A stretch of DNA of 41,124 bases from a virus (taxonomy: Duplodnaviria > Heunggongvirae > Uroviricota > Caudoviricetes): IMG/VR virus record IMGVR_UViG_2802429226_000008, positions 1 through 41,124 of that record; one strand, 5' to 3'. The notes under the pieces were generated by a model. It was not told where the DNA came from. It searched no databases and was given only the letters and a program-made list of their open reading frames with translations. Made by a program: the position numbers and the translations under genes. Position 1 is the stretch's first letter. Each line of letters begins with the position of its first letter. Below, in pieces: positions 1,370-41,124 of this stretch.

Positions 1370-1445
1370 GCCGATATAGCTCAGTTGGTAGAGCAGCGCA
1401 TTCGTAATGCGAAGGTCGTAGGTTCGACTCCTATTATCGGCACCA
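1370..1445 (+). tRNA. thrW: tRNA-Thr (anticodon CGU)
   Basis: 76-nt sequence GCCGATATAGCTCAGTTGGTAGAGC...GGTTCGACTCCTATTATCGGCACCA with anticodon loop cTTCGTAAt and 3' CCA; cloverleaf-compatible. Confidence 0.93.
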
Positions 1446-1459
1446 TTTAAATCAATAAG

Positions 1460-7258: not shown

Positions 7259-7459
7259 ATGAAAGCGTATTGGGACTCTTTAACCAAAGAACAGCAGGGC
7301 GAGTTGGCCGGAAAAGTTGGCTCAACACCTGGCTACTTACGGCTGGTTTTCAATGGCTATAAAAAAGCCAGTTTTGTGCTGGCTAAAAAACTTGAGCAAT
7401 GCACGTCAGGTGCAATTACGAAATCTGACTTAAGACCGGATATCTATCCGAAAGATTAG
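7259..7459 (+). CDS. cro: Cro-like HTH regulator
   Basis: 66 aa; GGAGG SD 10 nt upstream; divergent from cI. Confidence 0.75.
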   Translation: MKAYWDSLTKEQQGELAGKVGSTPGYLRLVFNGYKKASFVLAKKLEQCTSGAITKSDLRPDIYPKD

Positions 7460-7490
7460 CAGAACACTTTCAATTTTTAACCACAGAACG

Positions 7491-8054
7491 ATGAGGCTAA
7501 CCGTGGGTAAGCATCACTGGAAAATAGAAAAACAGCCTGAGTGGTACGTGAAAGCTGTCAGAAAAACTATCGCAAAGTTGCCGGGTGGTTACGCTGAAGC
7601 AGCTGACTGGCTGGATGTAACAGAGAACGCATTATTTAACCGCCTTCGTGCCGATGGCGATCAGATTTTCCCGCTGGGATGGGCAATGATTTTGCAACGT
7701 GCTGGTGGAACTCACTTCATTGCTGACGCAGTGGCGCAGTCTGCAAATGGCGTCTTTGTGTCTCTTCCTGACGTCGAGGATGTGGACAACGCCGATATTA
7801 ACCAGCGCCTGCTGGAAGTCATTGAACAGATCGGCAGTTATTCAAAACAGATTCGTTCAGCAATTGAAGACGGTGTAGTGGAACCGCATGAGAAGACAGC
7901 AATTAACGACGAGCTGTACCTCTCAATTTCGAAGCTGCAGGAGCATGCAGCACTGGTCTACAAAATTTTTTGCATTTCAGAAAGTAATGACGCCCGCGAG
8001 TGTGCAGCTCCGGGCGCCGTGGCGTGTCGTGACTGTGGAGAAACTAACGCATGA
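7491..8054 (+). CDS. putative early regulatory protein (CII/YdaT-position; function uncertain)
   Basis: 187-aa ORF immediately after cro. Confidence 0.5.
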
Positions 8055-8389
8055 ACAGTTTAACAACACACTACCGTCGCTCGCAACTGATTGCGCTTCC
8101 TGTACCGGGTGGAAAAGCGAAGGTGGAGTATTGCTATGCAGTAAATGTACCAGGTGACAGGGAAATTGTAACCCACAGCTTTGCAGAGTGGGCTGTGGGT
8201 GATTTCAACCGGCAGAAGGAGACAGTCCTTTGCGACAAGTTAACCGCTGGTTCAAAGATCACTACGGAGTGCCCGTCAGAGTCATTCGTTGGGAGCCGGA
8301 AACACAACGTGTTATCTACCTCCGCGAAGGCTATGAGCATGAGTGCTTCAGCCCGCTCGAACAGTTTCGTCGTAAATTCAGGGAAATAG
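8051..8389 (+). CDS. hypothetical protein; 3' half probably read in wrong frame (see finding)
   Basis: 112-aa track ORF; C-terminal third is Ser-rich junk-like while alternate frame 8203..8409 reads protein-like. Confidence 0.35.
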
Positions 8390-8398
8390 AGGTCGGTC

Positions 8399-9340
8399 AT
8401 GAGCACTAAATTAACCGGCTATGTATGGGATGGTTGCGCTGCATCAGGCATGAAATTATCCAGCGTGGCAATTATGGCCCGCCTGGCTGATTTCAGTAAT
8501 GACGAAGGTGTGTGCTGGCCATCAATTGAAACCATTGCCCGCCAGATTGGCGCGGGGATGAGTACCGTCAGAACGGCTATCGCACGGCTGGAAGCAGAAG
8601 GCTGGTTAACGCGTAAGGCGCGTCGCCAGGGTAACCGCAATGCGTCGAATGTTTATCAGCTTAACGTTGCGAAGCTTCAGGCAGCGGCATTTTCTCAACT
8701 GTCAGATTCTGACCCGTCAAAATCTGACGCATCAAAATCTGACCCGTCAAAATTTGATGCGTCGAAATCTGGCAAAAAAGCGGGTTTTCACCCGTCAGAA
8801 TCTGGCGGGGATCCGTCAGTAAAATCAAAACATGATCCGTCAGATAAAAAAACTTCTCGTCCGGACGCTTCGCAACCGGACACGCAGACGGCTGAACAGG
8901 AGTTTTTAACTCGCCATCCTGATGCGGTTGTATTCAGCCCTAAAAAGCGCCAGTGGGGAACGCAGGATGATTTGACCTGCGCACAGTGGCTCTGGAAAAA
9001 AATCATCGCCCTGTACGAGCAGGCCGCCGAATGTGACGGCGAGGTGGTTCGTCCCAAAGAACCGAACTGGACAGCCTGGGCAAACGAAATTCGCCTGATG
9101 TGTGTGCAGGATGGTCGTACTCACAAACAAATCTGCGAGATGTACAGCCGCGTCAGCCGCGATCCGTTCTGGTGCCGTAACGTGCTCAGCCCGTCGAAGC
9201 TGCGGGAAAAATGGGATGAGCTTTCCCTGCGCTTATCGCCGTCCGTCAGCACGTACACAGAAAAACGCGAAGACCCGTACTTCAAAGCCAGTTACGACAA
9301 CGTGGACTACAGCCAGATCCCGGCAGGATTCAGGGGGTGA
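8399..9340 (+). CDS. replication initiation protein (lambda O-like, N-terminal wHTH), contains iteron array
   Basis: 313 aa; N-terminal HTH region; internal DPSKSDASKSDPSKFDASKSG repeat reflecting DNA iterons. Confidence 0.8.
   Translation: MSTKLTGYVWDGCAASGMKLSSVAIMARLADFSNDEGVCWPSIETIARQIGAGMSTVRTAIARLEAEGWLTRKARRQGNRNASNVYQLNVAKLQAAAFSQLSDSDPSKSDASKSDPSKFDASKSGKKAGFHPSESGGDPSVKSKHDPSDKKTSRPDASQPDTQTAEQEFLTRHPDAVVFSPKKRQWGTQDDLTCAQWLWKKIIALYEQAAECDGEVVRPKEPNWTAWANEIRLMCVQDGRTHKQICEMYSRVSRDPFWCRNVLSPSKLREKWDELSLRLSPSVSTYTEKREDPYFKASYDNVDYSQIPAGFRG
8702..8806. repeat. iteron array (putative replication origin), 15-bp periodic direct repeats TCAAAATCTGAC, followed by an AT-rich tract
   Basis: copies at 8702, 8717, 8732, 8747, 8762 and 8795; A-rich segment 8820..8850. 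Confidence 0.7.
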
Positions 9341-9342
9341 TC

Positions 9343-9831
9343 ATGAGTCTTTTGAATGAAGTTCAGAAATTCATTGAAGCCCATCCGGGGTGTACTTCCG
9401 GAGACATTGCGGATGCTTTTGCAGGTTACTCACGGCAGCGCGTTCTGCAGTCAGCAAGCAAGTTACGTCAGAGTGGGCGTGTGGCTCACCGTTGTGAAGG
9501 AGATACACGCAGACATTTCCCACGCCTGACTGAGAGAGCGCAGGAGCCGGAACCACAACCAGTTCGTGAAACCAGACCTGTGCGCAATTTCTATGTCGGC
9601 ACTAACGATCCCCGGGTGATTTTGTGCCTGACCCGCCAGGCGGAAGAATTGGAGTCCAGGGGCTTATACCGTCGTGCTGCAACGGTGTGGATGGCGGCAT
9701 TCCGTGAAAGCCACTCCCAGCCAGAACGAAACAATTTTCTGGCGCGTCGTGAGCAGTGTTTACGGAAAAGCAGCAAGCGCGCTGTATCGGGTGATGAGTG
9801 GTATCTGTCAGGGAATTACGTGGGGGCTTAA
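9343..9831 (+). CDS. hypothetical phage protein (possible winged-helix N-terminus)
   Basis: ATG at 9343 (track start 9337 is GTG); TAATG overlap with next gene. Confidence 0.55.
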   Translation: MSLLNEVQKFIEAHPGCTSGDIADAFAGYSRQRVLQSASKLRQSGRVAHRCEGDTRRHFPRLTERAQEPEPQPVRETRPVRNFYVGTNDPRVILCLTRQAEELESRGLYRRAATVWMAAFRESHSQPERNNFLARREQCLRKSSKRAVSGDEWYLSGNYVGA

Positions 9832-12011: not shown

Positions 12012-13007
12012 GTGACCGTGAGAGCACTACTGACCCCTGAAATTGCCCCGCGTATGGGGATCGTATTGTTCAGGCCAGGTTCAGAGCTGATGCCCTTGTT
12101 TATGCAGGGGCGTGTCCTGCTGGAGCCTGAGCCGGAACGTTATTCATCTTTCGCCAGTGGTGCCGTTCCGGCGGCATCACAACCGCTGGCGGATGATCCT
12201 GCCGTTCGGGCCGTGTTCCGCAATGAGGCAGTGATCCGTCGTGCTGGTGGCGTGGAATGTCTTGAAAGCTGGTTACTTCGTGAAAAAGGCTGCCAGTGGC
12301 CTCATTCCGGCTGGCACAGCGAGAACATGACCACAATGCGACACGCGCCGGGCGCAATCCGTCTGTGCTGGCACTGTGATAACCAGCTGCGCGATCAGTT
12401 CACGGAACGGCTGGAATCAATGGCAACGGATAACTGTGCCCGGTGGGTGTTATCTGTCGTGCGTCGGGATCTCGGTTTTAATGATAGTCACGTTGTGACA
12501 ATGCCGGAACTGTGCTGGTGGCTGGTTCGTAATGACTTGGCGGATGCCTTACCGGAAAGTGCAGCCCGTAAGGCACTGAGATTACCGAAGCCTGTTGTGC
12601 CGTCTGTCACCCGGGAAAGTGACCTTGTGCCTTCGGTTCCTGCCACCAGCATCATCCAGGATAAAGCGAAAAAGGTGCTGGCGCTGAAAGTGGATCCGGA
12701 GTCGCCGGAGTCTTTTATGTTACGCCCAAAACGTCGCCGCTGGGTTAATGAAAAGTACACGCGCTGGGTTAAGACACAGCCGTGTGCATGTTGTGGAAAG
12801 CCTGCTGATGATCCCCACCACCTGATAGGCCACGGTCAGGGGGGAATGGGTACAAAAGCGCATGACCTCTTTGTGTTGCCTTTGTGCAGAAAGCATCACG
12901 ACGAACTGCATGCGGATACCGTGGCATTTGAAGAGATGTATGGCTCCCAACTGGAGCTGATATTTCGTTTTATCGATCGTGCGCTGGCAATTGGCGTACT
13001 GGCGTAA
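12012..13007 (+). CDS. DUF968-family prophage protein (YdfU-like)
   Basis: 331 aa; C-terminal Cys/His-rich CACCGK...HHLIGHG...CRKHHDELH; start codon uncertain (GTG at 12012). Confidence 0.65.
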   Translation: MTVRALLTPEIAPRMGIVLFRPGSELMPLFMQGRVLLEPEPERYSSFASGAVPAASQPLADDPAVRAVFRNEAVIRRAGGVECLESWLLREKGCQWPHSGWHSENMTTMRHAPGAIRLCWHCDNQLRDQFTERLESMATDNCARWVLSVVRRDLGFNDSHVVTMPELCWWLVRNDLADALPESAARKALRLPKPVVPSVTRESDLVPSVPATSIIQDKAKKVLALKVDPESPESFMLRPKRRRWVNEKYTRWVKTQPCACCGKPADDPHHLIGHGQGGMGTKAHDLFVLPLCRKHHDELHADTVAFEEMYGSQLELIFRFIDRALAIGVLA

Positions 13008-13020
13008 GTGGAGAACGAGC

Positions 13021-13773
13021 ATGAACCTTGAAGCCTTACCAAAATATTACTCCCCAAAATCTCCAAAATTGAGCGATGACGCACCGGCGACAGGCTCAGG
13101 TGGTTTAACGATTACGGATGTGATGGCTGCGCAGGGGATGGTGCAGTCGAAAGCACCGCTTGGGTTTGCCTTATTCCTGGCAAAAGTTGGTGTTCAGGAT
13201 CCTCAGTTTGCGATTGAAGGTCTGCTCAATTACGCGATGGCACTGGATAACCCGACATTGAACAAATTGAGTGAAGAAATCCGGTTACAGATCATCCCTT
13301 ACCTTGTGAATTTTGCCTTTGCTGATTATTCCAGGTCTGCGGCAAGTAAGGCTCGCTGTGAGCATTGTGCTGGTACTGGATTTCATAATGTATTGCGCGA
13401 GGTGGTGAAGCACTCCAGAAGCGGGGAATCTGTTATCAAGGAAGAGTGGGTGAAGGAACTATGTCAGCATTGTCATGGTAAGGGAGAAGTCAGCACAGCG
13501 TGCAGAGGGTGTAAGGGTAAAGGTATTGTCCTGGATGAAAAAAGGACCCGGCTTCATGGCACACCTGTTTATAAGATTTGTGGGCGTTGCAATGGAAAAC
13601 GGTTTAGTCGTTTACCAACCACACTGGCGCGGCATCATGTCCAGAAGCTGGTACCGGACCTGACTGATTATCAGTGGTACAAAGGATATGCAAATGTCAT
13701 TGATAAACTGGTTACAAAGTGCTGGCAGGAGGAATCTTACGCTGAAGCACAATTGAGAAAGGTGACGAGATAA
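13021..13773 (+). CDS. late-gene antiterminator Q-like protein
   Basis: 250 aa; paired CxxC zinc-finger motifs (CEHCAGTG, CQHCHGKG, CRGCKGKG, CGRCNG); position just upstream of lysis genes. Confidence 0.78.
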   Translation: MNLEALPKYYSPKSPKLSDDAPATGSGGLTITDVMAAQGMVQSKAPLGFALFLAKVGVQDPQFAIEGLLNYAMALDNPTLNKLSEEIRLQIIPYLVNFAFADYSRSAASKARCEHCAGTGFHNVLREVVKHSRSGESVIKEEWVKELCQHCHGKGEVSTACRGCKGKGIVLDEKRTRLHGTPVYKICGRCNGKRFSRLPTTLARHHVQKLVPDLTDYQWYKGYANVIDKLVTKCWQEESYAEAQLRKVTR

Positions 13774-14372
13774 GTGATTTTCGCCGAAGATGGCGACATG
13801 ATGCTTGCATTTTTCAAAAAATATGGATAAGATTTTCTCAACGATGGGCTTTGTATGTCTGCCGTTGAGAATCTTCAAGAACCCGCCATCAAGTAGGTAT
13901 TTTGTTATCCAAATATCAGTTCTGAATAGTCTTAGTCGCTTCTTGATAAACATAAAAGAATAAGTACTTGCTTTGAATGGCCGCCTTTTAGACAGGGCAG
14001 AGAGTACGATTGGTTGAAAAAAGCATAGTTCTTGGCGGTAGGTTTTATTTTAGTCTCTCATCTATGTATCTAGGGAAGTATGTGATTACCTTCAGGAATT
14101 ATATCCTGTGTTTCATATGATTACATGGGAGCAAGGGACGCCAACTTTATAACAATTCTTTTGCCCAGCCACTATATATAGATAAAAAAAATCCTCATCA
14201 TCCCGTATATTGTTGTTGATTTCTTTTTGCTATATATGTTGTGTTTTTTATGCCTTTATTGCATATGTGATTAATGTGCTTGTTGTTATATTCAATACGA
14301 TGCCAAGGGATTTGGGACGTGTATATCCAATAAATTGGCAGATTTTTGTTAATTACTTGGGTAGCGTATTGT

Positions 14373-14813
14373 ATGACTAAAAATGCACAGCAGGTTCTTG
14401 AAGACTCTGCCCAACAGATTTTTCCCGATTATTTTCCTGCAGATGTTCCTCCAAAAGAGTCCTTGGATGCTGAAGGGGTTTTTTATCGCTTAGCCAGAAA
14501 TAATCCACCTGGGAAAGCTTGTTTTTTAAACATGAAAGAAGAAAACCCAAAAAGAATGAAAAAGTTCCAAGGGTTAAAATTGAAATGCTGCTATGGTGTT
14601 TCTATGTTCATGGACGAAACATCACTGGTAAATGTATTTAATAAATTTCCTGAAGGAATAGGTGAAAGGTTTATTGCTAAAGGCGAGTTGAATCCACAGG
14701 ATGGAAGAATGCTAAAAACAGGAGCTCCTGATTCGACTCATTTTACCATTTGGCTTTGTAAAGATGCTCGAGTTCATGAAAAATTCACCTGTATAAGAGA
14801 GGTGGTTAGATGA
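14373..14813 (+). CDS. hypothetical protein, AT-rich cargo gene A (146 aa)
   Basis: ATG at 14373 (track start 14346 is TTG); low-GC codon usage; ATGA overlap with gene B. Confidence 0.6.
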   Translation: MTKNAQQVLEDSAQQIFPDYFPADVPPKESLDAEGVFYRLARNNPPGKACFLNMKEENPKRMKKFQGLKLKCCYGVSMFMDETSLVNVFNKFPEGIGERFIAKGELNPQDGRMLKTGAPDSTHFTIWLCKDARVHEKFTCIREVVR

Positions 14814-16099
14814 GCAATATTTTTTTGGAAGATAGTGTGTTCGGCACATTATATATGCAAAAAATTTATGAGTTCTTCGAAGAGCCAAAACTTTTCTCTG
14901 TGTCTAATGAAATAAATAGCATGTTTGTTGTCTATTGGATTGGCGACGAAGAAGATTATGATAAATGGATTATCATACCGATTTCAAAAGATAGGTTGGA
15001 GCACTTCGAGCGTAAAAGAATTGATATTAGAAGTGTTTTAGTGTATCAAGAACAAAAGCTTTGCTATCAGTTTAATATTTACTATGAAGATAATCATGTT
15101 GATGAAATAAAAATAAATGTTTCTGAGTTAAATGAGAAGATAAAAATTCCAGAACCTAACTTATATATTAGTAGTGTTCTTCCTGTATTACCTAATGGTA
15201 AAATTGGAAAGGAGGTAGAATTCTCTACGCATGAGATTCATGTGGAGAAAACAGCAACTTCTGTGGAACCCTTGGTTTTAAAAGGCGTCTCGAAGCTTTT
15301 TGAGTGTTTTAATGATTTCTATTCATCAATATTAGCTGCATTTGATGAAAAAGATGTAATGAGTCCAGTATCTGGACGTCCTGGTTCATTTGTTCTTTCA
15401 TTCAAGGCAGATAAAATGCAGCAAATTGAACCATTGCTGAAAAAACTAAATGAGCTGATTCTATCAAGAAAAGATATTATTGGTTTTGTTAAACAGAATA
15501 ATATCGATGTTCAGATGTTATCTGCTTTATTTGAAAGTGTGATAGAGACAAGTTCATGTTTTGAACTAAAAAGTAATGTGACTGATGATATTATTCTTAG
15601 AGTCAGAAAAACTGATGCTGAGTTCTATTCTGGCACATTGATTAAAATGGCTACTCAAGTTGTTAGTAGTTATCAGGTACCGCAGGCTAACCTAATTGAA
15701 CAAGTGTTTAAGATAGTTGAATTAAAATGGCAAGAGAAGCATCTGAACCTGATTAGTACTGGTCTGGATAATCGACATATATTGTATTATATTCATGCGG
15801 CCAAAATACTTGGGTTACTAAATAGTAATGGTTCTGTTTCAGCTCTTGGTCAGCAATTGGTTGAATCTGACTATGATAAGAGACTAAGAATCGCTGCACG
15901 CGGTTTTGAAACAAGTCATTGCGGGTGGGCGTGGATTACCTGGAGTCAGGCTAAAAATCTTTCTGAGCTCGATCCACTTACAGCTGAACGATTTTTGCAA
16001 GATAGATGTATATCTCTCAGCTCCAAAACAATAAAGAGAAGGGCTTCTACTTTAAGGCAGTGGTGTGAAAAATTGCAACCTGCTTATCAGGAGCTCTGA
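14810..16099 (+). CDS. hypothetical protein, AT-rich cargo gene B (429 aa)
   Basis: GAGGTGG SD; long open frame in AT-rich DNA; no recognisable catalytic motif. Confidence 0.7.
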   Translation: MSNIFLEDSVFGTLYMQKIYEFFEEPKLFSVSNEINSMFVVYWIGDEEDYDKWIIIPISKDRLEHFERKRIDIRSVLVYQEQKLCYQFNIYYEDNHVDEIKINVSELNEKIKIPEPNLYISSVLPVLPNGKIGKEVEFSTHEIHVEKTATSVEPLVLKGVSKLFECFNDFYSSILAAFDEKDVMSPVSGRPGSFVLSFKADKMQQIEPLLKKLNELILSRKDIIGFVKQNNIDVQMLSALFESVIETSSCFELKSNVTDDIILRVRKTDAEFYSGTLIKMATQVVSSYQVPQANLIEQVFKIVELKWQEKHLNLISTGLDNRHILYYIHAAKILGLLNSNGSVSALGQQLVESDYDKRLRIAARGFETSHCGWAWITWSQAKNLSELDPLTAERFLQDRCISLSSKTIKRRASTLRQWCEKLQPAYQEL

Positions 16100-28301: not shown

Positions 28302-28450
28302 CGGCTGAATACCTCACTGATCGCTTCTTTGACTGCGCCAGTTACTGGCGCATTAATCCTTTCGAATTGCTGAATATGCCGATCAGTGAAATTCCCTTAC
28401 TGGTCAGTCAGGCAAACAGGATAGAGCAGGAGAAACGCACACATGGCTGA
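28268..28450 (+). CDS. tail assembly chaperone -1 frameshift extension
   Basis: -1 frame ORF overlapping chaperone end; heptamer T_TTT_TTC at 28283..28289. Confidence 0.55.
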   Translation: MACGRFFPPGLTAEYLTDRFFDCASYWRINPFELLNMPISEIPLLVSQANRIEQEKRTHG

Positions 28451-30278
28451 ATTTGAGCTTAAGGCGTTGATCACCGGTGTCGACAGGCTTTCTCCCGCAC
28501 TGTCGAAAATGCAAAAGAAAATCCGGGGATTTAAACGCCAGGCGGAAGAAGCGTCACAGGGTGGGCTGGCGCTTGGTGGCGGACTGGCAGCGGGTCTGAC
28601 GCTTTCCCTGAAATCTTATGCCGATCAGGAAAACGCCGCCACCGGGCTGAAAGTCGCCATGATGGATGCGAACGGCGAGGTTGGAAAGAGCTTTCAGGAC
28701 ATCAATAAACTGGCTATTGGCCTGGGTAACCAGCTACCCGGTACAACGGCTGATTTCCAGAACATGATGCAGATGCTGGTGCGTCAGGGGATCCCGGCAG
28801 AAAACATTCTGGGTGGTGTGGGTAAAGCGACAGCTTATCTTGCGGTACAACTGAAAAAAACACCGGAAGCGGCTGCTGAGTTTGCTGCAAAGATGCAGGA
28901 TGCTACCGGAACGGCGTCAGAAGACATGATGGGGCTGTTCGACACTATCCAGAAGGCGTTTTATCTGGGCGTTGACGATACCAACATGTTGTCCTTCTTC
29001 ACTAAAACCAGTTCTGTTCTGAAGATGGTGAACAAGGACGGTCTTCAGGCTGCACAGAGCCTTGCCCCCATCAGCGTCATGATGGATCAGATGGGGATGA
29101 ACGGGGAGTCGGCAGGTAATGCCCTGCGAAAAGTTATCCAGTCCGGATTAAGCGTTAAGAAAATCAGGGACGTCAATAAAGTCATGGCCCGCCAGAGACT
29201 CGGGGTACAGCTCGATTTTACTGACGGCAAAGGAAGTTTTGGCGGTCTTGATAACATGTTCAGGCAACTGGCAAAGCTGCGAAAACTGACCGACGTTAAG
29301 CGAACAGGTGTACTTAAGGCAATATTTGGTGATGATGCCGAAACCCTTCAGGTGGTCAATGCACTAATCGATAAAGGAAAGGATGGCTACGATCAGATCC
29401 AGCAGAAGATGAATAAACAGGCCAGCCTGAATAAACGTGTTCAGGCCCAGCTTGGTACGCTGTCCAACCTGTGGGAGGCAATGACGGGGACCGCAACTAA
29501 CGGCCTTGCGGCTATTGGCGGCGCATTTTCTGGTGACGCCAAAAATATCACGCAATGGCTGGGGGAGTTGGGGGAGAAATTCACGAAGTTTGCGGATGAA
29601 AATCCCCGGGTTATTCGCGGCGTCGTCGGGCTTGCTGCCGGTCTTGCGATTCTGAAACTGGGATTGATGGGCGTGGGCAGTGCCATCAGTATTGTCAGCA
29701 GGATCATGTCGATGACGCCGATTGGCATGATTGCGACGGCGATAGCCCTGGCTGCGGGATTAATTATCACTAACTGGGATGTTGTTGGACCTTATTTTAA
29801 GAAACTCTGGGAAACCATTGGTCCTTATTTTGAGGCTGGCTGGGAACTCCTTAAGAAAGTTTTTGCCTGGTCGCCGCTGGGGATGGTGATCAATAACTGG
29901 GGGCCGGTTGTTAAGTGGTTTCAGGATATGTGGGACAAGCTGAAGCCAATTATTGAGTGGTTTACCGACAGTTCCGGTGACACGGTCGATGCCATTAACT
30001 CTGCGCAGTGGGGCGCGGGTGCTTATGATGCTTATGGGACGGGAATATCGGCGCGGGGATACATACCTTATCCGGTGGTGGATCTGGCTCAGTCAAACAA
30101 CGCCTCCGGTGCCACAGGCCCGAATCCCTTCATGATTAACAAAGCTTCTGCGCCAAAAGTTGATGGTGAGATCAAGGTCTCTTTTGTGAATTCGCCTCCG
30201 GGGATGCGGGTTATGGAAACGCGATCCAGCGGTTTTGATGTCAGCCATGATGTTGGCTATACGCGCTTTGGCAGGTAA
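28443..30278 (+). CDS. tail tape measure protein
   Basis: 611 aa; helical with hydrophobic central segment; position. Confidence 0.85.
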   Translation: MAEFELKALITGVDRLSPALSKMQKKIRGFKRQAEEASQGGLALGGGLAAGLTLSLKSYADQENAATGLKVAMMDANGEVGKSFQDINKLAIGLGNQLPGTTADFQNMMQMLVRQGIPAENILGGVGKATAYLAVQLKKTPEAAAEFAAKMQDATGTASEDMMGLFDTIQKAFYLGVDDTNMLSFFTKTSSVLKMVNKDGLQAAQSLAPISVMMDQMGMNGESAGNALRKVIQSGLSVKKIRDVNKVMARQRLGVQLDFTDGKGSFGGLDNMFRQLAKLRKLTDVKRTGVLKAIFGDDAETLQVVNALIDKGKDGYDQIQQKMNKQASLNKRVQAQLGTLSNLWEAMTGTATNGLAAIGGAFSGDAKNITQWLGELGEKFTKFADENPRVIRGVVGLAAGLAILKLGLMGVGSAISIVSRIMSMTPIGMIATAIALAAGLIITNWDVVGPYFKKLWETIGPYFEAGWELLKKVFAWSPLGMVINNWGPVVKWFQDMWDKLKPIIEWFTDSSGDTVDAINSAQWGAGAYDAYGTGISARGYIPYPVVDLAQSNNASGATGPNPFMINKASAPKVDGEIKVSFVNSPPGMRVMETRSSGFDVSHDVGYTRFGR

Positions 30279-30338
30279 TGAAAAATTAATCTGTTAATGA
30301 GTTCCACTCCGGTGGGATTTTTTATGTACGGAGTTTAT

Positions 30339-31667
30339 ATGACGTGGAAAGACAGACTTCAGGACGCGTCATTTCGCGGTGTGCCGTTTAAGGTTGAAGA
30401 AGAAAGTACGGGAACCGGTCGTCGTGTGGAAACGCATGAATACCCGAACCGCGACAAACCCTATACCGAAGACCTGGGGAAAATCACTTTCCGCCCGTCC
30501 ATCACGGCTTATGTGGTGGGAGATGACTGCTTTGACCAGCGCGATCGCCTGATTGACGCGCTGAATAAACCCGGTCCTGGCACGCTTGTCCATCCGACTT
30601 ACGGTGAGCTGAAAGTCTGTGTTGACGGAGAGGTTCGGGTCAGCACATCGAAGAGTGAAGGGCGTATTGTCCGCTTTGACCTGAAGTTTGTCGAAGCGGG
30701 AGAACTCTCTTACCCCACATCAGGTGCGGCGACGGCGCAGACGCTGATGTCATCCTGTTCTGCACTGGATGACTGCATCAGTGACAGTTTCAGTAGTTTC
30801 AGTATCGATGGCGTGGCAGATTTTGTGCAGAACGACGTCGTCGGTAATGCCGGCACAATGCTTGGGTATGTTTCTGATGCGATGAAAGTGGTGGATTCTG
30901 CCGTATCGGATGCCGCCAGGCTGTTGCAGGGGGATATCTCGGTACTTCTGCCGCCGCCATCGTCAGGCAAAAATTTCGTTGAGCAGGTGCAGAAAATGTG
31001 GCGTACCGGGAAACGCCTTTATGGTAACGCCAGCGACCTGGTCACCATGATCAAAACGCTTTCCGGTGTCAGCCTTGGCAGCGATCTGCAACCGCGCGGC
31101 GTCTGGAAAACGGACAGTAAAACCACCGCCACGGCGACACAGCAGCGTAACGTGGTTGCCAGCATCCTTCGTACGACCGCAATCAGCGAAGCGGCGTATG
31201 CCGTCACCCGATTGCCTGCGCCAACAACTTCCGCGGTGATGCAGAATGCCGCAGTGGGGCAGGCAACAACACCCGCGCAGAGCACTGGCTGGCCTTCCGT
31301 CACGCATCCGGCACTGAACAATGCACCGGCGGTGAAAAGCACGGTTGACCTGCCAACGTGGGAAGAACTGACTGACATTCGCGACACACTGAATACGGCA
31401 ATTGATAAGGAGTTGTCCCGTACAACCAGTGATGCGCTGTTTCTGGCGCTGCGCCGGGTGAAAGCAGATCTGAATGCGGATATCAACACGCGCCTTGAAC
31501 AGTCTGCACGGATCATTCAGCGCACGCCGGATGAGGTTTTACCCGCGCTGGTGCTGGCGGCGACCTGGTTTGATAACGCGGCGCGTGACGGGGACATTAT
31601 CCGGCGTAATGCCATTACGCATCCCGGCTTTGTGCCGGTGATCCCTCTGAAGGTGCCAGTGCAATGA
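30339..31667 (+). CDS. DNA circularization protein-like tail/baseplate protein (Mu gp43-like)
   Basis: ATG at 30339 with GGAG SD; N-terminal WKDRLQDASFRGVPF...HEYPNRD motif. Confidence 0.78.
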   Translation: MTWKDRLQDASFRGVPFKVEEESTGTGRRVETHEYPNRDKPYTEDLGKITFRPSITAYVVGDDCFDQRDRLIDALNKPGPGTLVHPTYGELKVCVDGEVRVSTSKSEGRIVRFDLKFVEAGELSYPTSGAATAQTLMSSCSALDDCISDSFSSFSIDGVADFVQNDVVGNAGTMLGYVSDAMKVVDSAVSDAARLLQGDISVLLPPPSSGKNFVEQVQKMWRTGKRLYGNASDLVTMIKTLSGVSLGSDLQPRGVWKTDSKTTATATQQRNVVASILRTTAISEAAYAVTRLPAPTTSAVMQNAAVGQATTPAQSTGWPSVTHPALNNAPAVKSTVDLPTWEELTDIRDTLNTAIDKELSRTTSDALFLALRRVKADLNADINTRLEQSARIIQRTPDEVLPALVLAATWFDNAARDGDIIRRNAITHPGFVPVIPLKVPVQ

Positions 31668-35339: not shown

Positions 35340-36110
35340 ATGCATCGTATAGACACGAAAACCGCGCAGAAGGATAAGTTCGGCGCGGGTAAGAACGGTT
35401 TTACCCGTGGTAACCCCCAGACCGGCACGCCTGCCACCGATCTGGATGATGACTACTTTGACATGTTGCAGGAGGAGCTTTGCAGCGTTGTGGAGGCATC
35501 CGGTGCCAGCCTGGAGAAGGGGCGGCATGACCAGCTGCTTACCGCGCTTCGTGCGCTGCTGTTAAGCCGCAAGAATCCGTTTGGCGATATCAAATCGGAT
35601 GGCACGGTGAAAACAGCTCTCGAAAACCTTGGTTTGGGAGAAGGCTCTGCATTACCTGTTGGTGTCCCTGTTCCGTGGCCTTCAGCCACTCCGCCAACAG
35701 GCTGGCTGAAATGCAACGGAGCAGCTTTTTCTGCTGAAGAATACCCGGAACTGGCAAAGGCTTACCCGACAAATAAATTGCCAGATTTACGTGGTGAGTT
35801 TATTCGTGGCTGGGATGACGGGCGTGGTATTGATGCTGGACGTGCTTTATTGAGCCTTCAGGCTGGGATGCTGGAAAAACACCGCCATATTGTTGTTGCC
35901 AATGATGGTTACGACACAAAAGATGAATGGGAACTGGCTACGATTTTCAAAAAAACATACACACAAGGACGGGGACTTGATGCCACAAATACAGGAGGGA
36001 GTCTGATCCCATCACCGACACTTCATTCACGAGGGAGTATCGGTAATACTGGCGGGAGTGAGACCCGTCCACGAAATATTGCATTTAACTTTATCGTGAG
36101 GGCTGCATAA
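35340..36110 (+). CDS. tail fiber protein (constant N-part, variable C-part inside invertible segment)
   Basis: 256 aa; crossover site inside codons ~93-101 (LENLGLGE). Confidence 0.8.
35617..35644. repeat. left inversion crossover site (gix/cix-like)
   Basis: CTCTCGAAAACCTTGGTTTGGGAGAAGG; inverted copy at 37459..37486. Confidence 0.75.
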
Positions 36111-36712
36111 TGGATAACGCAGTATTAAATAGCGAGTTTATTGCCACGAAGGCGGGGAATATTACCGTCTATAACTACGATGGTGAAACTCGGGAATATA
36201 TTTCTGCATCAACTGAATATCTTGCAATGGGTGTCGGTATTCCAGCATATTCCTGTTTAGACGCTCCTGGTACATATAAGGCTGGTTATACAATTTGCCG
36301 TTCTGTAGATTTAAATTCATGGGAATATGTGCCAGACCATCGCGGTGAAATCGTCTATAACACCGAAACGGGAGACGCCAAAGAAATCACAGCTCCGGGT
36401 GATTATCCTGAAAATACAACCACTATCGCCCCGTTAACGCCATTCGATAAATGGGATGGTAAGAAATGGGTGACCGATACTGAGGCACAGCATAGCGCCG
36501 CAGTAGACGCGGCAGAAGTACAGCGTCAGTCACTGATTAATACTGCAATGGCTTCCATTAGTCTGATTCAACTTAAATTGCAGGCCGGGCGGAAGCTGAT
36601 GCAGGCAGAGACCACCCGACTTAACACTGTGCTGGATTACATTGACGCGGTGACGGCAACAGATACCAGCACAGCGCCGGATGTCATCTGGCCTGAACTG
36701 CCGGAGGCGTAG
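36110..36712 (+). CDS. tail fiber assembly protein
   Basis: 200 aa; TAATG coupling to tail fiber; conserved C-terminus shared with the inverted alternative. Confidence 0.78.
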   Translation: MDNAVLNSEFIATKAGNITVYNYDGETREYISASTEYLAMGVGIPAYSCLDAPGTYKAGYTICRSVDLNSWEYVPDHRGEIVYNTETGDAKEITAPGDYPENTTTIAPLTPFDKWDGKKWVTDTEAQHSAAVDAAEVQRQSLINTAMASISLIQLKLQAGRKLMQAETTRLNTVLDYIDAVTATDTSTAPDVIWPELPEA

Positions 36713-37121
36713 GCCATTCAATATCTGGCACACTGGAGGTATCAACCAGCTCCAGTGCGTCCAGGTAATCCAGCCATAAATTATATTGCGCCAGTTCCTC
36801 GTCTTTCAGACGACCAATAGCGGCTTTACCGGGCCATTGTTTACTGTTCATGTATTCGTTGGCCTGATTAAGCAATAATTGCCTTTCTGATTCTGCCTGT
36901 TGAATAAGTTCTTCATGTGATGGTGGAGGTATTAGTGCCCATGTGGGTAATCCATTTTCTCCTGCAACACGAATTTTGCCATCTGGGGGCGTATTTATTG
37001 CAAATTCATTATAAACATCATCACTGACAGCCAGAGCATCATCTGGCCATGAATTTGCATTAATGTAATCATCCTTAAGTGCAGGATTCACAAAAATGTT
37101 TAAAGATGGACTATAAAACAT
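36684..37121 (-). CDS. alternative tail fiber assembly protein (inverted orientation)
   Basis: 145 aa; C-terminus (...VDTSSVPDIEWPTPP) parallels the plus-strand assembly protein C-terminus (...TDTSTAPDVIWPELP). Confidence 0.72.
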   Translation of the reverse strand: MFYSPSLNIFVNPALKDDYINANSWPDDALAVSDDVYNEFAINTPPDGKIRVAGENGLPTWALIPPPSHEELIQQAESERQLLLNQANEYMNSKQWPGKAAIGRLKDEELAQYNLWLDYLDALELVDTSSVPDIEWPTPPAVQAR

Positions 37122-37122
37122 A

Positions 37123-37512
37123 TTACACCCCTATAGCGATATAACGACCTAATACAGCGTTTGCAGCAGTCGCTATGCTTGAAAAACCGCGGAACTGATT
37201 TGATGTAATTGCAGAAGCCGACAGGATTCCTGCGCCTGAAGGTGTATGCCCCACATGACTAACTATCATTCCATAACATGCTGACGGAAAGGCAAAAGGA
37301 AAATCGTTAAGATATCCGGCATCTTCACCACCAGACCCACCAAATCTCGCCTGCCCCCACTGAATAATCAGTGTTCTCCGGGAACCTGAAATAATTAACG
37401 GAATCGTTACATACCCATTCAGACCAATGACACCCGATGCAGTGCCAGCCAGAGATAATTCTCCCAAACCAACGTTTATGAAAATGCAGAAATAACAAGC
37501 AAATGGCATCAT
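37123..37512 (-). CDS. alternative tail-fiber C-terminal cassette (silent until inversion fuses it to the constant N-part)
   Basis: ORF reads ...NVGLGE at crossover site, matching NLGLGE of expressed fiber. Confidence 0.65.
   Translation of the reverse strand: MMPFACYFCIFINVGLGELSLAGTASGVIGLNGYVTIPLIISGSRRTLIIQWGQARFGGSGGEDAGYLNDFPFAFPSACYGMIVSHVGHTPSGAGILSASAITSNQFRGFSSIATAANAVLGRYIAIGV
37459..37486. repeat. right inversion crossover site (gix/cix-like)
   Basis: TTCTCCCAAACCAACGTTTATGAAAATG; shares TTGGTTTGGGAGAA with the left site in inverted orientation. Confidence 0.75.
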
Positions 37513-37538
37513 TCCTGCTTTTGTCAGGGAGATCTACC

Positions 37539-38093
37539 ATGCTTATTGGCTATGTACGTGTGTCAACAAATGACCAGAACACCGATCTACAACGTAATGC
37601 GTTGAACTGTGTAGGATGTGAACTGATTTTTGAAGACAAGATAAGCGGTACGAAGTCCGAAAGGCCCGGACTGAAAAAACTGCTCAGGACATTATCGGCA
37701 GGTGACACACTGGTTGTCTGGAAGCTGGATCGGCTGGGGCGTAGTATGCGGCATCTGGTCATTCTAGTTGAGGAGTTGCGCGAACGTGGCGTTAATTTTC
37801 GCAGCCTGACGGATGCTATTGATACCAGCACACCGATGGGGCGTTTTTTCTTTCATGTGATGGGTGCCTTGGCTGAAATGGAACGAGAACTGATTGTTGA
37901 ACGAACAAAAGCTGGACTGGAAGCTGCTCGCGCGCAGGGACGAATTGGTGGACGTCGTCCCAAACTTACACCAGAACAATGGGCGCAGGCCGGGCGATTA
38001 ATTGCATCAGGCGTTCCTCGCCAAAAGGTGGCGATCATCTATGATGTTGGTATATCGACACTGTATAAGAAGTTTCCGGTTGGAGATAAATGA
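37539..38093 (+). CDS. serine DNA invertase (Hin/Gin/Pin/Cin family)
   Basis: 184 aa; N-terminal GYVRVSTNDQ catalytic-Ser motif; C-terminal HTH; adjacent to crossover site. Confidence 0.9.
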   Translation: MLIGYVRVSTNDQNTDLQRNALNCVGCELIFEDKISGTKSERPGLKKLLRTLSAGDTLVVWKLDRLGRSMRHLVILVEELRERGVNFRSLTDAIDTSTPMGRFFFHVMGALAEMERELIVERTKAGLEAARAQGRIGGRRPKLTPEQWAQAGRLIASGVPRQKVAIIYDVGISTLYKKFPVGDK

Positions 38094-38094
38094 A

Positions 38095-38129
38095 ACCGTA
38101 GCACGTCGTATGCAAGAACGTGCTACGGT
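38095..38129 (+). terminator. stem-loop just after invertase stop (possible terminator)
   Basis: 10-bp stem CCGTAGCACG/CGTGCTACGG; no clear U-tract. Confidence 0.35.
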
Positions 38130-38313
38130 TAGCTGGTGAAATGTCGATAGTGCGAGTGTTGAATAATTTTTAGCCGTTATTGATTTTACGTATTTTTGTA
38201 TGAGATGATTTGCATCTCCTGTCACCGACCATCTATGACTATACGTCACCATTTCTAGGGCTGCTATGTGCCAAGAGCGGCAATTGACAGAGAGCAGCCC
38301 TATCTCAGTGGCT

Positions 38314-41124
38314 TTATTTTTTTAGAGATTGCATTCGTTCATTGAATATGTCCAATGTGTCTTGAAATTCAACAAAGCCTCTATCCTTTATAAGGCTTTT
38401 AATTAAGTTAGGAAAATCACTTTCTACACCAGCTGTAATGAAATCTAACTCGCCTAATTTATTCGGGATGTTTTCAGAAACAAATTTGTTAATAACCTCA
38501 AGAAATTGATCAGGCATGGCACATCCGCTTGCGACTAAATGCAAACATTCCATAATATCGCTTACTGTTGCCAGTGGTAGGTTTAAAATATTACTGTTAA
38601 TAAACTTGTCTATAATGTCAACGACCTCAGGAGAGCCAATCCTTTTGATGTTCAATAATAAACTCTTAGTGATGGATCTTTTCCACTTATCATCAAATAA
38701 TTGTATTTTTGTTAACGCTAATGTTAATAGTTCAGTGTTTTTGTATTCGTAATTATGATTCTCTGATAATATGTAAATGTTTCGTAAGATATTGGAGTTA
38801 ATTACATGCTGGTCATAACCATTTAACTCTCCTGTATTGATTTTTATAAGTATTACATCCAGGATTTTTAACATATCATCATGGGATTTTTGATACAAAA
38901 ACTCATTCACAGCTAGAAGATTATGTATGTTTTCATAAATATTTATGTTATTAGTTCTGCCTTCTAACAAAGGAAGCAAACCATTTATTATTTTCTTTAA
39001 CTGGTTTGAACTCCACGGAACACATCCTAATATAATCAATAAATTATTGGTCCATCGATCTATTGAAGTGGTATGAATAAAATTTTTATTTTTCAACCTA
39101 ATCAGGTTGCATATGTTTTCGAGAGAGTTGAGTAAATATTTCTTAATATGGTGAACTTCTCTTTTGTCAAGTTTGCTGGTGCTGATTATTATTTTGTCTT
39201 TTATTACCTTACTTAAAAATTTTTTGAGTTTTTCTGTCTCGCAGTATTTTATTAACATAAATAGATCGATTCTATTAACATAGAATATCTCTTCGCATAG
39301 ATAGTGTTCGAGGCTACTAAGAATATTAAATTCGAAAAATTGTTTAACCTCTTTATATTCTTCAATTAAAATTTCGTTGCCTAAAATGAAATACACATAA
39401 GGGTACAGTTTCGCTCTTGTTTTAAATTCATCATTGGAAAATGCTATTCCACCACTCTTTCTTATTTGTGAGTACCCTAAATTCTTCTTCGATTCAACGT
39501 CAAATCGATAGTAAGCTTTGTATATTTCATTAAATTCAAGCATCTTTACTAATTCTTGTAGCTCACTTTGCACCCCCCGTGGAAAATCAATTATTTTACT
39601 TTTAAACTCAAATGGAGTATGGCTTTCCATTATTGATTTACAATCTTCATCAATGTCCTTACCGTTACAGTGTAAATCCGACTTCAACATCCTGTAAGCA
39701 TAATCAAAATTAGACATGTGAATGGTGGCGAGAATATAGTTTCTCTCATTAAGATGAAGCTTTACTTTCGAAATAAGAATATCGAGAAGTTTGCCATATT
39801 CCTTGTTAATAAGAAGTATTTCAGCATTATCCTTTGAATAAGCGAAAGAAATCTTATTGTATAGCTCAGACTCTAATTCTGAAGAACTAATCACCTCATA
39901 CAGTTTCGAGTCATAACTAACTGTATTTATAAATGCCTTTTCCAAAATAGATGAGAATGTCTTTTTTAAGTGAGTATTTTTACTCAAAATGTCATTAAGG
40001 TATATGCTATTTATTTTCCTGCTATACTCGTCATAATCAGTCGTCAAAATATTATTGTGGGAGGTTAGTTTAACCCCAGACTTATCATAATCAATGGTAC
40101 TATTAGTTAATTTTTTACTGATCTGCTCAGGGAGCAATACTTTGTATTGTGTTAATGCTTTTAGTTTGCTATCAACATATTTATTTATTTTTTTTGTTAC
40201 AATACATTGAATATCATTCTTCAATTTATTTTTATCAAAATCAGACATTCTCAGGTCATCTTCTATTTTTTTTACCTTTGACTCAGTATAGATTAGGGTC
40301 CTCTTTATAAACTCATCTTGGTTTTTAACAAGCTTGAAATCACTGAAAAATTTTGAATAAAGATCATGATAGCTAATGTCAGTATTCATCGGTGTCAACA
40401 AGGATATCCCATGATTTCTTAAGTAAAGAGCCTGGGCTGCATCATGATTTTTCTGGAGCAAATATTTTCTTGGTGTTGCTTTTGATATAGTTGTAACCCA
40501 TGAAACAATCTGTTTTAAATCATAATCACTATAAGAGTATCCTAAAAACACAACAGTGTTTGTTGAGAATATTCCTTTTATAAAATTTTCGATAAGTGGA
40601 AAATTTTGGCTGTACTGTAAGTAATCATCCTCTTTAAAAACAAAATTATTCTGTCGAAAATCCCCATGCATCTTTATAATTTTCTTGTCCAAATGACTTT
40701 GTGCCAGGTCCACGTCAGAACTAACTAAATCATAAGCCAATCCTATGTCTTGTGCAGTTTTTTCAAGCAAACTATCCCAGTTGGTTGTAATTATATAGTG
40801 GGGGTTTAATTCAAATAGCATCTTATGAAAAAGACTTGGTTTCAAATCTCTAATTATTGATTTGACTTTTTTAACATAAGAGTTTTGTCCGTATTGAAGA
40901 AAGTAAAGTTGGGCTATTTTTAAATAATCATTTTCTTCAGACAATCCTAAGTCGTCTTTTAGCTCATTTATTAACTCCCTCCAGGTTGGTATTTTTATTA
41001 ATTCCGTTTCGCTGAATTTAGAAAAACCAGCACCAATAAAAAGAACTAACTTATTATCTTGACTGGCATTCAATATTTCGTTCAAGTCATATTCAGAAAA
41101 AGAAAGTGGATTTAAATTTATCAT
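38314..41124 (-). CDS. SIR2-domain protein (936 aa), candidate NAD+-depleting antiphage defense protein (DSR/ThsA-like N-domain, unknown C-domain)
   Basis: N-terminal GAGFS (31-35), TTNWD (N115), KMHGD (H153), FLGYSYSD motifs; AT-rich codon usage; ATG exactly at window edge. Confidence 0.78.
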   Translation of the reverse strand: MINLNPLSFSEYDLNEILNASQDNKLVLFIGAGFSKFSETELIKIPTWRELINELKDDLGLSEENDYLKIAQLYFLQYGQNSYVKKVKSIIRDLKPSLFHKMLFELNPHYIITTNWDSLLEKTAQDIGLAYDLVSSDVDLAQSHLDKKIIKMHGDFRQNNFVFKEDDYLQYSQNFPLIENFIKGIFSTNTVVFLGYSYSDYDLKQIVSWVTTISKATPRKYLLQKNHDAAQALYLRNHGISLLTPMNTDISYHDLYSKFFSDFKLVKNQDEFIKRTLIYTESKVKKIEDDLRMSDFDKNKLKNDIQCIVTKKINKYVDSKLKALTQYKVLLPEQISKKLTNSTIDYDKSGVKLTSHNNILTTDYDEYSRKINSIYLNDILSKNTHLKKTFSSILEKAFINTVSYDSKLYEVISSSELESELYNKISFAYSKDNAEILLINKEYGKLLDILISKVKLHLNERNYILATIHMSNFDYAYRMLKSDLHCNGKDIDEDCKSIMESHTPFEFKSKIIDFPRGVQSELQELVKMLEFNEIYKAYYRFDVESKKNLGYSQIRKSGGIAFSNDEFKTRAKLYPYVYFILGNEILIEEYKEVKQFFEFNILSSLEHYLCEEIFYVNRIDLFMLIKYCETEKLKKFLSKVIKDKIIISTSKLDKREVHHIKKYLLNSLENICNLIRLKNKNFIHTTSIDRWTNNLLIILGCVPWSSNQLKKIINGLLPLLEGRTNNINIYENIHNLLAVNEFLYQKSHDDMLKILDVILIKINTGELNGYDQHVINSNILRNIYILSENHNYEYKNTELLTLALTKIQLFDDKWKRSITKSLLLNIKRIGSPEVVDIIDKFINSNILNLPLATVSDIMECLHLVASGCAMPDQFLEVINKFVSENIPNKLGELDFITAGVESDFPNLIKSLIKDRGFVEFQDTLDIFNERMQSLKK

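What the first reader, a model, noticed from the sequence alone, without database searches (positions are those of the whole stretch)
38094..41124. 936-aa AT-rich SIR2-domain protein at the prophage end, downstream of the invertase: candidate single-gene NADase defense
Seen: minus-strand ORF 38314..41124 with the ATG exactly at the window edge. The N-terminal ~210 aa carry the SIR2-like motif series GAGFS (res 31-35), ITTNWD (Asn115, nt 40780..40782), KMHGD (His153, nt 40666..40668) and VVFLGYSYSD (193-200). About 700 further residues have no motif I recognise. Codon usage is very AT-rich, unlike the adjacent tail genes. The gene is convergent with the invertase, with hairpins between them. 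Established: SIR2-domain proteins with a catalytic Asn/His pair act as NAD+-depleting abortive-infection effectors (Thoeris ThsA, DSR1/DSR2, SIR2-HerA); as I recall, the equivalent slot next to pin in prophage e14 holds the restriction gene mcrA. Inference: a DSR-like standalone effector whose C-terminal sensor domain may be novel. A partner gene upstream (beyond the window) cannot be excluded.
Basis: partly seen in the sequence, partly recalled or inferred. Interest (0 to 1): 0.85.

Follow-up and report, generated by a model that had tools for sequence, protein, structure and literature searches.

The report
Divergent DSR2-type sirtuin defence gene
The last gene of this E. coli prophage encodes a distant relative of DSR2, a known one-protein anti-phage system that destroys the cell's NAD+ on sensing a phage protein; it is a new branch of a known family rather than a new kind of system.

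Summary
A 936-aa minus-strand ORF (38314..41124) starts at the window edge, has 30% GC, and carries an N-terminal SIR2_2 domain. Ser35, Asn115, Asp117 and His153 are invariant in 41 homologs and align with DSR2 S51/N133/D135/H171.

No partner gene exists. In near-identical E. coli genomes the upstream sequence is non-coding, followed by the attR copy of tRNA-Thr. Homologs in other genera are also solitary.

The host element is an SfII/SfI-like myovirus prophage at thrW. The gene fills the slot where SfII carries its gtrABC serotype-conversion genes.

Verdict: a divergent, untested Gram-negative clade of DSR2-type NADase abortive-infection proteins. Its trigger is unknown. NCBIfam and PADLOC DSR models miss it, and they also miss BsDSR2. 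Interest is moderate to low.

The parts
38314..41124 (-). Complete gene for the 936-aa DSR2-like protein (stop codon 38314-38316; ATG 41122-41124)
   Evidence: identical protein AEE54981.1/WP_000609167.1, named 'SIR2 family protein'
40321..41124 (-). SIR2 (NADase) domain, residues 1-268. Catalytic codons: S35 41020-41022, N115 40780-40782, D117 40774-40776, H153 40666-40668
   Evidence: Pfam SIR2_2. phmmer against BsDSR2 gives E 6e-35, with residues aligned to S51/N133/D135/H171. All four are invariant in 41 homologs. hhalign SIR2 vs SIR2: E 2e-58
39889..40320 (-). Mixed alpha/beta linker subdomain of the MID region, residues 269-412 (boundaries approximate)
   Evidence: AF2 secondary structure: long helices plus two beta-hairpin pairs. 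It corresponds to the DSR2 Linker 299-408. hhalign for the whole MID region (residues 275-559): 88%, E 3e-6
39445..39888 (-). Helical-bundle subdomain of the MID region, residues 413-560 (boundaries approximate)
   Evidence: AF2 model. It lies within the 502-column hhalign alignment to DSR2 307-856
38317..39444 (-). HEAT-like alpha-solenoid, the putative sensor, residues 561-936. The last ~95 residues (842-936) are not alignable to DSR2 at profile level and are the least conserved part of the family
38256..38302 (.). Inverted repeat 12 nt downstream of the gene's stop codon; a possible transcript-end hairpin
   Evidence: No T-run follows, so it is not called a terminator
38094..38130 (.). Perfect 13-bp inverted repeat immediately after the stop of the convergent invertase gene
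1370..1455 (+). tRNA-Thr(CGT) thrW and the 56-nt attL core (1400-1455). The identical attR copy lies about 441-496 nt beyond the window end, so the DSR2-like gene is the last gene inside the prophage

Best explanation
The gene encodes a divergent member of the DSR2 (defence-associated sirtuin 2) family. DSR2 is a single-protein abortive-infection system carried as prophage cargo.

Proposed mechanism, by analogy with B. subtilis DSR2:
- The protein is held inactive, probably as a tetramer with the SIR2 domains at the centre and the MID/HEAT-like arms pointing outward.
- A newly made protein of an infecting phage docks in the C-shaped HEAT-like solenoid.
- That binding opens the SIR2 NAD+ pocket (S35/N115/D117/H153).
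- NAD+ is hydrolysed to ADP-ribose and nicotinamide, and phage replication aborts.

Shown here: the domain architecture, the catalytic residues, homology of both halves to DSR2, and the single-gene, mobile-cargo context.

Inferred: NADase activity, oligomeric state, activation by a phage protein, and the abortive outcome.

Unknown: the identity of the trigger.
For: 1. SIR2 domain. Pfam SIR2_2 E 3e-24. The best PDB sequence match is BsDSR2 at E 6e-35, against about 1e-14 for ThsA and KomC. S35/N115/D117/H153 align with DSR2 S51/N133/D135/H171 and are invariant across 41 homologs down to 29% identity.

2. Whole-protein fold. The AF2 model has pLDDT 86.9 and pTM 0.77, and was built without templates. 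Its top 45 Foldseek PDB hits are all DSR2 chains, full length, with E about 1e-21 and TM 0.63-0.65.

3. C-terminal part alone (residues 275-936, pLDDT 87.6).
- Foldseek: the top 41 hits are all DSR2 (E 6e-7 to 1e-3). Generic solenoids follow at E >= 0.035 and TM < 0.2.

4. Sequence homology without the SIR2 domain.
- hhalign of the family MID+CTD against the BsDSR2-family MID+CTD: 97.7%, E 1.7e-12, 502 columns.
- Controls: reversed template E 0.077; best of 10 block shuffles E 0.0076.
- Bridging proteins are hit by both MID+CTD profiles. P0400 scores E 3e-9 with this family and 1.2e-15 with the BsDSR2 family. P0391 scores 4.5e-11 and 1.8e-13.

5. Single gene.
- In UMNK88 and fS58a only non-coding DNA, attR and host paoD lie upstream.
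- Homologs are solitary in an Enterobacter lambdoid prophage, in the Aeromonas chromosome, and in Avibacterium next to a transposase and GmrSD.

6. Mobile cargo.
- GC is 0.30 against 0.57 for the tail genes.
- Only 14 of 5426 complete E. coli genomes carry the full-length gene.
- The gene sits in the slot between the tail-fibre genes and the att site, where SfII carries an acyltransferase and gtrABC.

7. Sensor-like evolution. The SIR2 domain averages 59% identity in all pairs, the MID/CTD 27-33%.
Against: - No experiment exists for this protein or its clade. No paper in the library names its accessions.
- The CTD-only profile finds nothing in the PDB by plain HMM-versus-sequence search at E <= 10. 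The CTD homology therefore rests on profile-profile comparison, fold and bridging sequences.
- The last ~95 residues do not align with DSR2.
- Curated DSR models do not call it. NCBIfam Dsr2 gives 67.7 bits against a cut-off of 1400, over the SIR2 region only. No PADLOC DSR model is hit. BsDSR2 itself fails the same models, so this weighs little.
- Oligomerisation and activation could not be tested.
- DSR1 shows that a SIR2 effector need not cause cell death.
Confidence: 0.8

Rival explanations
1. A Thoeris-type ThsA effector: a SIR2 NADase switched on by a small-molecule signal (gcADPR) made by a TIR-domain partner.
For: The best PADLOC hits are the ThsA1 SIR2 models, at E 4e-29 and 5e-26. 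ThsA structures are found by sequence at E about 1e-14.
Against: - The ThsA match covers only profile positions 11-229 of 478, which is the SIR2 part. No SLOG/STALD or Macro domain is present.
- BsDSR2 produces the same ThsA hits.
- No TIR gene lies nearby in E. coli or in three other genera.
- The C-terminal fold matches DSR2, not SLOG.
Confidence: 0.03
2. A DSR1-type, Avs5-type or SIR2-HerA-type system: a SIR2 effector with a TPR capsid sensor, a STAND NTPase, or a HerA partner.
For: It shares the immune-type SIR2 domain. EcDsr1 is also a single-gene E. coli system.
Against: - No TPR, P-loop/STAND or HerA domain is found by Pfam, NCBIfam or PADLOC.
- No neighbouring HerA gene exists.
- The fold search returns DSR2, not TPR or STAND proteins.
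- The Dsr1 sensor is described as a bilobed TPR domain homologous to the Avs7 sensor, which is a different architecture.
Confidence: 0.04
3. The SIR2 domain is not a bulk NADase here. Instead it uses NAD+ to modify a target, by ADP-ribosylation or deacylation of a host or phage protein. In that case the gene could serve prophage or host physiology rather than abortive infection.
For: SIR2 folds support several NAD-dependent chemistries. DSR1 gives only transient NAD+ depletion without growth arrest. A weak NCBIfam hit of BsDSR2 to an NAD-dependent deacylase model shows the common ancestry.
Against: - The closest characterised relative, over both domains, is a demonstrated NADase.
- The catalytic tetrad is conserved.
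- The gene is AT-rich, sporadic, mobile cargo. One homolog lies near a GmrSD type IV restriction gene.
- Housekeeping sirtuins belong to a different clade from all antiphage SIR2 proteins.
Confidence: 0.08
4. A decaying or non-functional remnant carried passively in a cryptic prophage.
For: The cluster holds many truncated entries, which may be assembly fragments or pseudogenes. The neighbouring tail-fibre gene is frameshifted in UMNK88.
Against: - The ORF is intact at 936 aa.
- It is >= 99% identical over the matched DNA in 14 complete genomes, within two different neighbourhoods.
- Homologs keep their full length (~890-950 aa) across several gammaproteobacterial families and Neisseria, with invariant catalytic residues.
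Confidence: 0.05

Closest known systems
Bacillus subtilis 29R DSR2 (defence-associated sirtuin 2; PDB 8WKT, 8K98, 8WY8 and others)
   Same: - It has the same four-part architecture in the same order: SIR2 NADase, alpha/beta linker, helical bundle, HEAT-like solenoid.
- The size is similar (936 vs 1005 aa).
- The catalytic S/N/D/H residues are the same.
- Both are single-gene systems.
- Profile-profile homology holds for both halves.
   Different: - Overall identity is only 16-19%, and 11-13% in the MID-CTD.
- The MID-CTD similarity is invisible to HMM-versus-sequence search.
- The last ~95 residues are not alignable, and the protein is about 70 aa shorter.
- The hosts are Gammaproteobacteria and Neisseria rather than Firmicutes.
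- Here it is carried by an SfII-like myovirus prophage.
- The trigger is unknown. The SPR-type siphovirus tail tube protein that activates BsDSR2 need not be the ligand.
Gao et al. 2020 DSR2 as modelled by NCBIfam NF041819 (1215-position equivalog) and the PADLOC DSR models
   Same: An N-terminal SIR2 domain matches at E 5.5e-19 over profile positions 8-217. Both are single-gene defence sirtuins.
   Different: The score is 67.7 bits against a cut-off of 1400, and nothing beyond the SIR2 region matches. No PADLOC DSR model is hit. The structurally characterised BsDSR2 also fails these models, so they describe another clade.
ThsA of type I Thoeris
   Same: A related immune-type SIR2 NADase domain.
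   Different: There is no SLOG signal-binding domain and no ThsB/TIR partner. The C-terminal region is a DSR2-type solenoid.
E. coli Dsr1 (WP_029488749.1)
   Same: A single-protein SIR2 defence system in E. coli that senses a phage structural protein, the major capsid protein.
   Different: The Dsr1 sensor is a bilobed TPR domain shared with Avs7. This protein has no TPR signature and folds like DSR2.

Membership tests
DSR2 (BsDSR2-type defence-associated sirtuin) | N-terminal immune-type SIR2 domain with catalytic S51/N133/D135/H171 equivalents | tested here: met
   S35/N115/D117/H153 align with these residues and are invariant in 41 homologs. hhalign SIR2 vs SIR2: E 2e-58
DSR2 (BsDSR2-type defence-associated sirtuin) | MID region (alpha/beta linker + helical bundle) following the SIR2 domain | tested here: met
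DSR2 (BsDSR2-type defence-associated sirtuin) | C-terminal HEAT-like alpha-solenoid sensor homologous to that of DSR2 | tested here: met
DSR2 (BsDSR2-type defence-associated sirtuin) | Stand-alone single gene, with no conserved partner | tested here: met
DSR2 (BsDSR2-type defence-associated sirtuin) | Tetramer with a central SIR2 core; NADase activated by binding of a phage tail tube protein; NAD+ depletion and abortive infection | not testable with these tools
   Needs biochemistry, cryo-EM or multimer modelling. The mechanism comes from the papers read
Dsr2 as defined by NCBIfam NF041819 / PADLOC DSR2 | Score above the curated cut-off over the full-length profile | tested here: not met
   67.7 bits against 1400, SIR2 region only. 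No PADLOC DSR hit. BsDSR2 also fails
Thoeris ThsA | SLOG/STALD (or Macro) signal-sensing domain and a neighbouring TIR-domain ThsB | tested here: not met
   The ThsA profile is matched only over positions 11-229 of 478. No TIR gene is present in any context examined
DSR1 | SIR2 fused to a bilobed TPR sensor homologous to the Avs7 sensor | tested here: not met
   No TPR or DSR1 profile hit. The C-terminal fold is DSR2-like, and none of the listed top hits is a natural TPR sensor protein. No direct comparison with EcDsr1 was made
SIR2-HerA (Nezha) / Avs5 | HerA ATPase partner, or a STAND NTPase domain in cis | tested here: not met
   No NTPase domain. No adjacent HerA gene

The most novel reading that the evidence does not exclude
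This Gram-negative clade has kept the DSR2 scaffold but re-tuned its solenoid. The unalignable, fastest-evolving last ~95 residues are part of that change. On this reading it recognises a phage protein other than a siphovirus tail tube protein. Because it lives in a myovirus prophage, it must also ignore that phage's own tail tube. It would then be a second, E. coli-tractable example showing how one sensor fold is re-targeted. It would also explain why the gene is missed by the NCBIfam and PADLOC DSR models.
Probability: 0.4. Interest if true: 0.45.

Novelty: new member of a known kind. Interest (0 to 1): 0.33.

Why it matters
- It extends the structurally characterised DSR2 family into Enterobacterales, Aeromonas, Acinetobacter, Pasteurellaceae and Neisseria. 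This clade is labelled only 'SIR2 family protein' and is missed by the NCBIfam and PADLOC DSR models. Those models also miss BsDSR2 itself. This is a practical annotation gap.
- It shows that the att-proximal cargo slot of SfII/SfI-type serotype-converting phages can carry a defence gene instead of O-antigen modification genes.
- An E. coli DSR2-type protein would allow trigger hunting with the well-developed coliphage collections.
- None of this changes current understanding of how SIR2 defences work.

Tried and rejected
- A plain HMM search of the PDB with the MID+CTD profile alone found nothing at E <= 10. The long 11-707 alignment obtained with the full-length profile could therefore be over-extension from the SIR2 anchor. 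I did not rely on it and used SIR2-free hhalign with controls instead.
- The afdb50 fold library was unavailable.
- Gao et al. 2020 is not held in the library, so the original DSR1 and DSR2 sequences could not be compared directly.
- tblastn against 50,697 phage genomes gave only two weak, SIR2-only hits. The gene is not common in sequenced free phages.
- A search for effector swapping on this sensor found none. Essentially all full-length representatives are ~890-950 aa, with the MID+CTD starting near residue 270.
- Strict terminator and promoter scans around the gene were uninformative.
- A literature search for the protein's accessions returned nothing.
- The e14/mcrA analogy was rejected as the context, because the prophage is SfII-like at thrW.
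Full report
**1. Observation**

The window holds a minus-strand ORF at 38314..41124 encoding 936 aa. Its ATG falls on the last three bases of the window. In E. coli UMNK88 the locus is 99.8% identical. There an in-frame stop lies four codons upstream of this ATG, and RefSeq annotates the same start (WP_000609167.1, 'SIR2 family protein'), so the protein is complete.

GAGFS is at 31-35, N115 is in ITTNWD, H153 is in KMHGD, and VVFLGYSYSD is at 191-200.

The gene has 30% GC and 30% GC3. A baseplate gene has 57%/62% and the invertase has 49% GC.

It is convergent with a serine invertase at 37503-38093, which matches the Resolvase and HTH_7 Pfam families. Two inverted repeats lie between them, at 38094-38130 and 38256-38302. 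Neither qualifies as a canonical intrinsic terminator.

**2. The N-terminal domain**

- Pfam SIR2_2 matches residues 111-242 at E 3.4e-24.
- Against all PDB sequences, the best match by far is B. subtilis DSR2, at E 6e-35 over residues 14-273. ThsA and KomC SIR2 domains follow at E about 1e-14.
- In that alignment S35, N115, D117 and H153 fall on DSR2 S51, N133, D135 and H171. These are the residues named as the NAD+ pocket and catalytic residues of DSR2.
- All four are invariant in an alignment of 41 homologs that reach down to 29% identity.

**3. The C-terminal 660 residues**

No sequence library names this region. I built a 41-sequence alignment and predicted the structure with AlphaFold2, without templates. 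The model has pLDDT 86.9 and pTM 0.77. It consists of:

- a SIR2 domain (about residues 1-268);
- a mixed alpha/beta linker with two beta-hairpin pairs (about 269-412);
- a helical bundle (about 413-560);
- a long alpha-solenoid running to the C-terminus.

This is the SIR2 / Linker / HB / HEAT-like layout described for DSR2.

Full-length fold search: Foldseek against the PDB returned DSR2 chains as the top 45 hits. The alignments are full length, with E about 1e-21, TM 0.63-0.65 and 16-19% identity.

The SIR2 domain could be driving that result, so I modelled residues 275-936 on their own (pLDDT 87.6, pTM 0.85) and searched again.

- Foldseek: the top 41 hits are all DSR2, with E from 6e-7 to 1e-3. 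Generic solenoids follow at E >= 0.035 and TM < 0.2.

Sequence-level tests gave the following.

- A MID+CTD-only profile found nothing in the PDB by plain hmmsearch at E <= 10.
- I retrieved the BsDSR2 family and built a 24-sequence alignment of it.
- hhalign of the two SIR2-free profiles gave 97.7% probability and E 1.7e-12 over 502 columns. Residues 312-841 here align to DSR2 307-856.
- Controls were clean. A reversed template gave E 0.077, and the best of ten block shuffles gave E 0.0076.
- MID alone gave 88% (E 3e-6). The HEAT-like part alone gave 95.5% (E 1.4e-8).
- The last ~95 residues do not align. They are also the least conserved part of the family.

An exhaustive search of 1.84 billion representative proteins with the MID+CTD profile found only 168 clusters at E <= 0.001. 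Nearly all full-length hits are ~890-950 aa, with the match starting near residue 270. A few longer proteins are also hit by the BsDSR2-family MID+CTD profile. P0400 scores E 3e-9 and 1.2e-15. P0391 scores 4.5e-11 and 1.8e-13. P0401 and P0383 are also hit by both. These proteins link the two groups.

The C-terminal region is therefore a diverged DSR2 MID/HEAT-like module, not a new domain.

**4. Context**

- The window starts with a 417-aa aldehyde-dehydrogenase-family gene, which I take to be proA from its size and its position beside thrW. Next come tRNA-Thr(CGT) at 1370-1445 and a tyrosine integrase at 1460-2623 (-).
- The structural genes are about 97% identical to the Shigella serotype-converting myoviruses SfII, SfI and SfIV.
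- A 56-nt copy of the tRNA 3' end (window 1400-1455) recurs in UMNK88 about 441-496 nt beyond the window end. A truncated LysR pseudogene and paoD follow it.
- The SIR2 gene is therefore the last gene inside a thrW-integrated prophage. The ~440 nt upstream of it hold no credible ORF. No partner gene exists.
- In SfII, the stretch between the tail-fibre assembly gene and int holds an acyltransferase, an IS element and gtrA-gtrB-gtrII. Here that cargo slot holds the invertase and the DSR2-like gene.
- In strain fS58a the same gene (99.2% identical) sits beside a GIY-YIG protein and an acyltransferase instead of pin.
- Only 14 of 5426 complete E. coli genomes carry the full-length gene.
- Homologs are solitary elsewhere too. 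One lies in a lambdoid prophage replication/nin region in Enterobacter. One lies between housekeeping genes in Aeromonas. One lies next to a transposase and near GmrSD in Avibacterium.
- The SIR2 domain averages 59% pairwise identity, against 27-33% for the MID/CTD. That pattern fits a conserved effector coupled to a fast-evolving sensor.

**5. Mechanism**

By homology with BsDSR2, the most likely mechanism has four steps:

- The resting protein is an auto-inhibited oligomer.
- A phage protein made during infection binds the HEAT-like solenoid.
- The SIR2 NAD+ pocket opens.
- NAD+ is depleted, and infection aborts.

The architecture, the catalytic residues and the single-gene mobile context are shown here. 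NADase activity, tetramerisation, the trigger and the abortive outcome are inferred. The trigger need not be a tail tube protein, because identity in the sensor is only 11-13% and the C-terminal tail differs.

**6. Membership**

The protein meets every sequence and structure criterion of the BsDSR2-type family that I could test.

It fails the curated Dsr2 model of NCBIfam (67.7 bits against 1400, SIR2 region only) and hits no PADLOC DSR model. BsDSR2 itself fails both as well. Those models therefore describe another clade (Gao's 1215-position DSR2), and the failure says little.

The other candidate families are excluded as follows:

- ThsA: no SLOG domain and no TIR partner.
- DSR1: a TPR sensor shared with Avs7, which is a different architecture.
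- Avs5: no NTPase domain.
- SIR2-HerA: no HerA partner.

**7. Novelty and score**

This is a new, untested, Gram-negative branch of a known and mechanistically well-understood family, so I file it as a new member of a known kind.

A specialist would not be surprised by a SIR2 NADase carried as prophage cargo. The useful points are these:

- there is an annotation gap, since the clade is named only 'SIR2 family protein';
- the gene occupies the serotype-conversion slot of an SfII-like phage;
- an E. coli DSR2-type protein would make the trigger easy to search for.

Interest is 0.33. The most novel reading still open is a re-targeted sensor that recognises a non-tail-tube trigger (probability about 0.4, interest about 0.45 if true).

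Noticed in passing
window 14346-16099 (+), two ORFs (155 aa and 429 aa) just downstream of the Q antiterminator gene at 12979-13773: This is a second AT-rich island (GC 0.34-0.35). Its two proteins weakly match PD-T4-10_A (E 5.6e-10) and PD-T4-10_B (E 1.1e-7) in PADLOC. The larger protein carries DUF6575 + DUF7226, and DUF6575 is listed among the domains of the Vassallo et al. PD systems. It is probably a second prophage-borne defence system.
   Followed up: partly
window 36110-38093: An invertible tail-fibre cassette. A tail fibre assembly gene at 36110-36712 (+) faces an oppositely oriented alternative set: Caudo_TAP at 36684-37121 (-) and a gp53-like C-terminal fragment at 37123-37512 (-). 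The serine invertase follows at 37503-38093 (+). In UMNK88 the gp53-like fragment is annotated as frameshifted.
   Followed up: partly
whole window; attL at 1400-1455; attR about 441-496 nt beyond the window end (L001 16107-16162): The prophage is an SfII/SfI/SfIV-like myovirus integrated at thrW. It lacks the gtrABC serotype-conversion genes that occupy the att-proximal slot in SfII.
   Followed up: yes
P0149 (B. subtilis DSR2) tested against NCBIfam and PADLOC: The structurally characterised BsDSR2 does not hit NCBIfam NF041819 'Dsr2' or any PADLOC DSR model at E <= 0.01. It hits only the ThsA SIR2 models. The name DSR2 therefore covers clades that these HMMs do not unite.
   Followed up: partly
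L002 (E. coli fS58a) 7421-9814: In this strain the same DSR2-like gene is preceded by an acyltransferase-family gene and a LEM-3-like GIY-YIG nuclease-domain gene instead of pin. The att-proximal slot is thus a variable cargo hotspot.
   Followed up: no
L001 (UMNK88) 4307-4753 (-), compared with window 28443-31667: UMNK88 has a minus-strand 'OB-fold protein' gene between the tape-measure and DNA-circularisation genes. That gene is absent from the window, where the two genes are adjacent. This is another small variable insertion.
   Followed up: no
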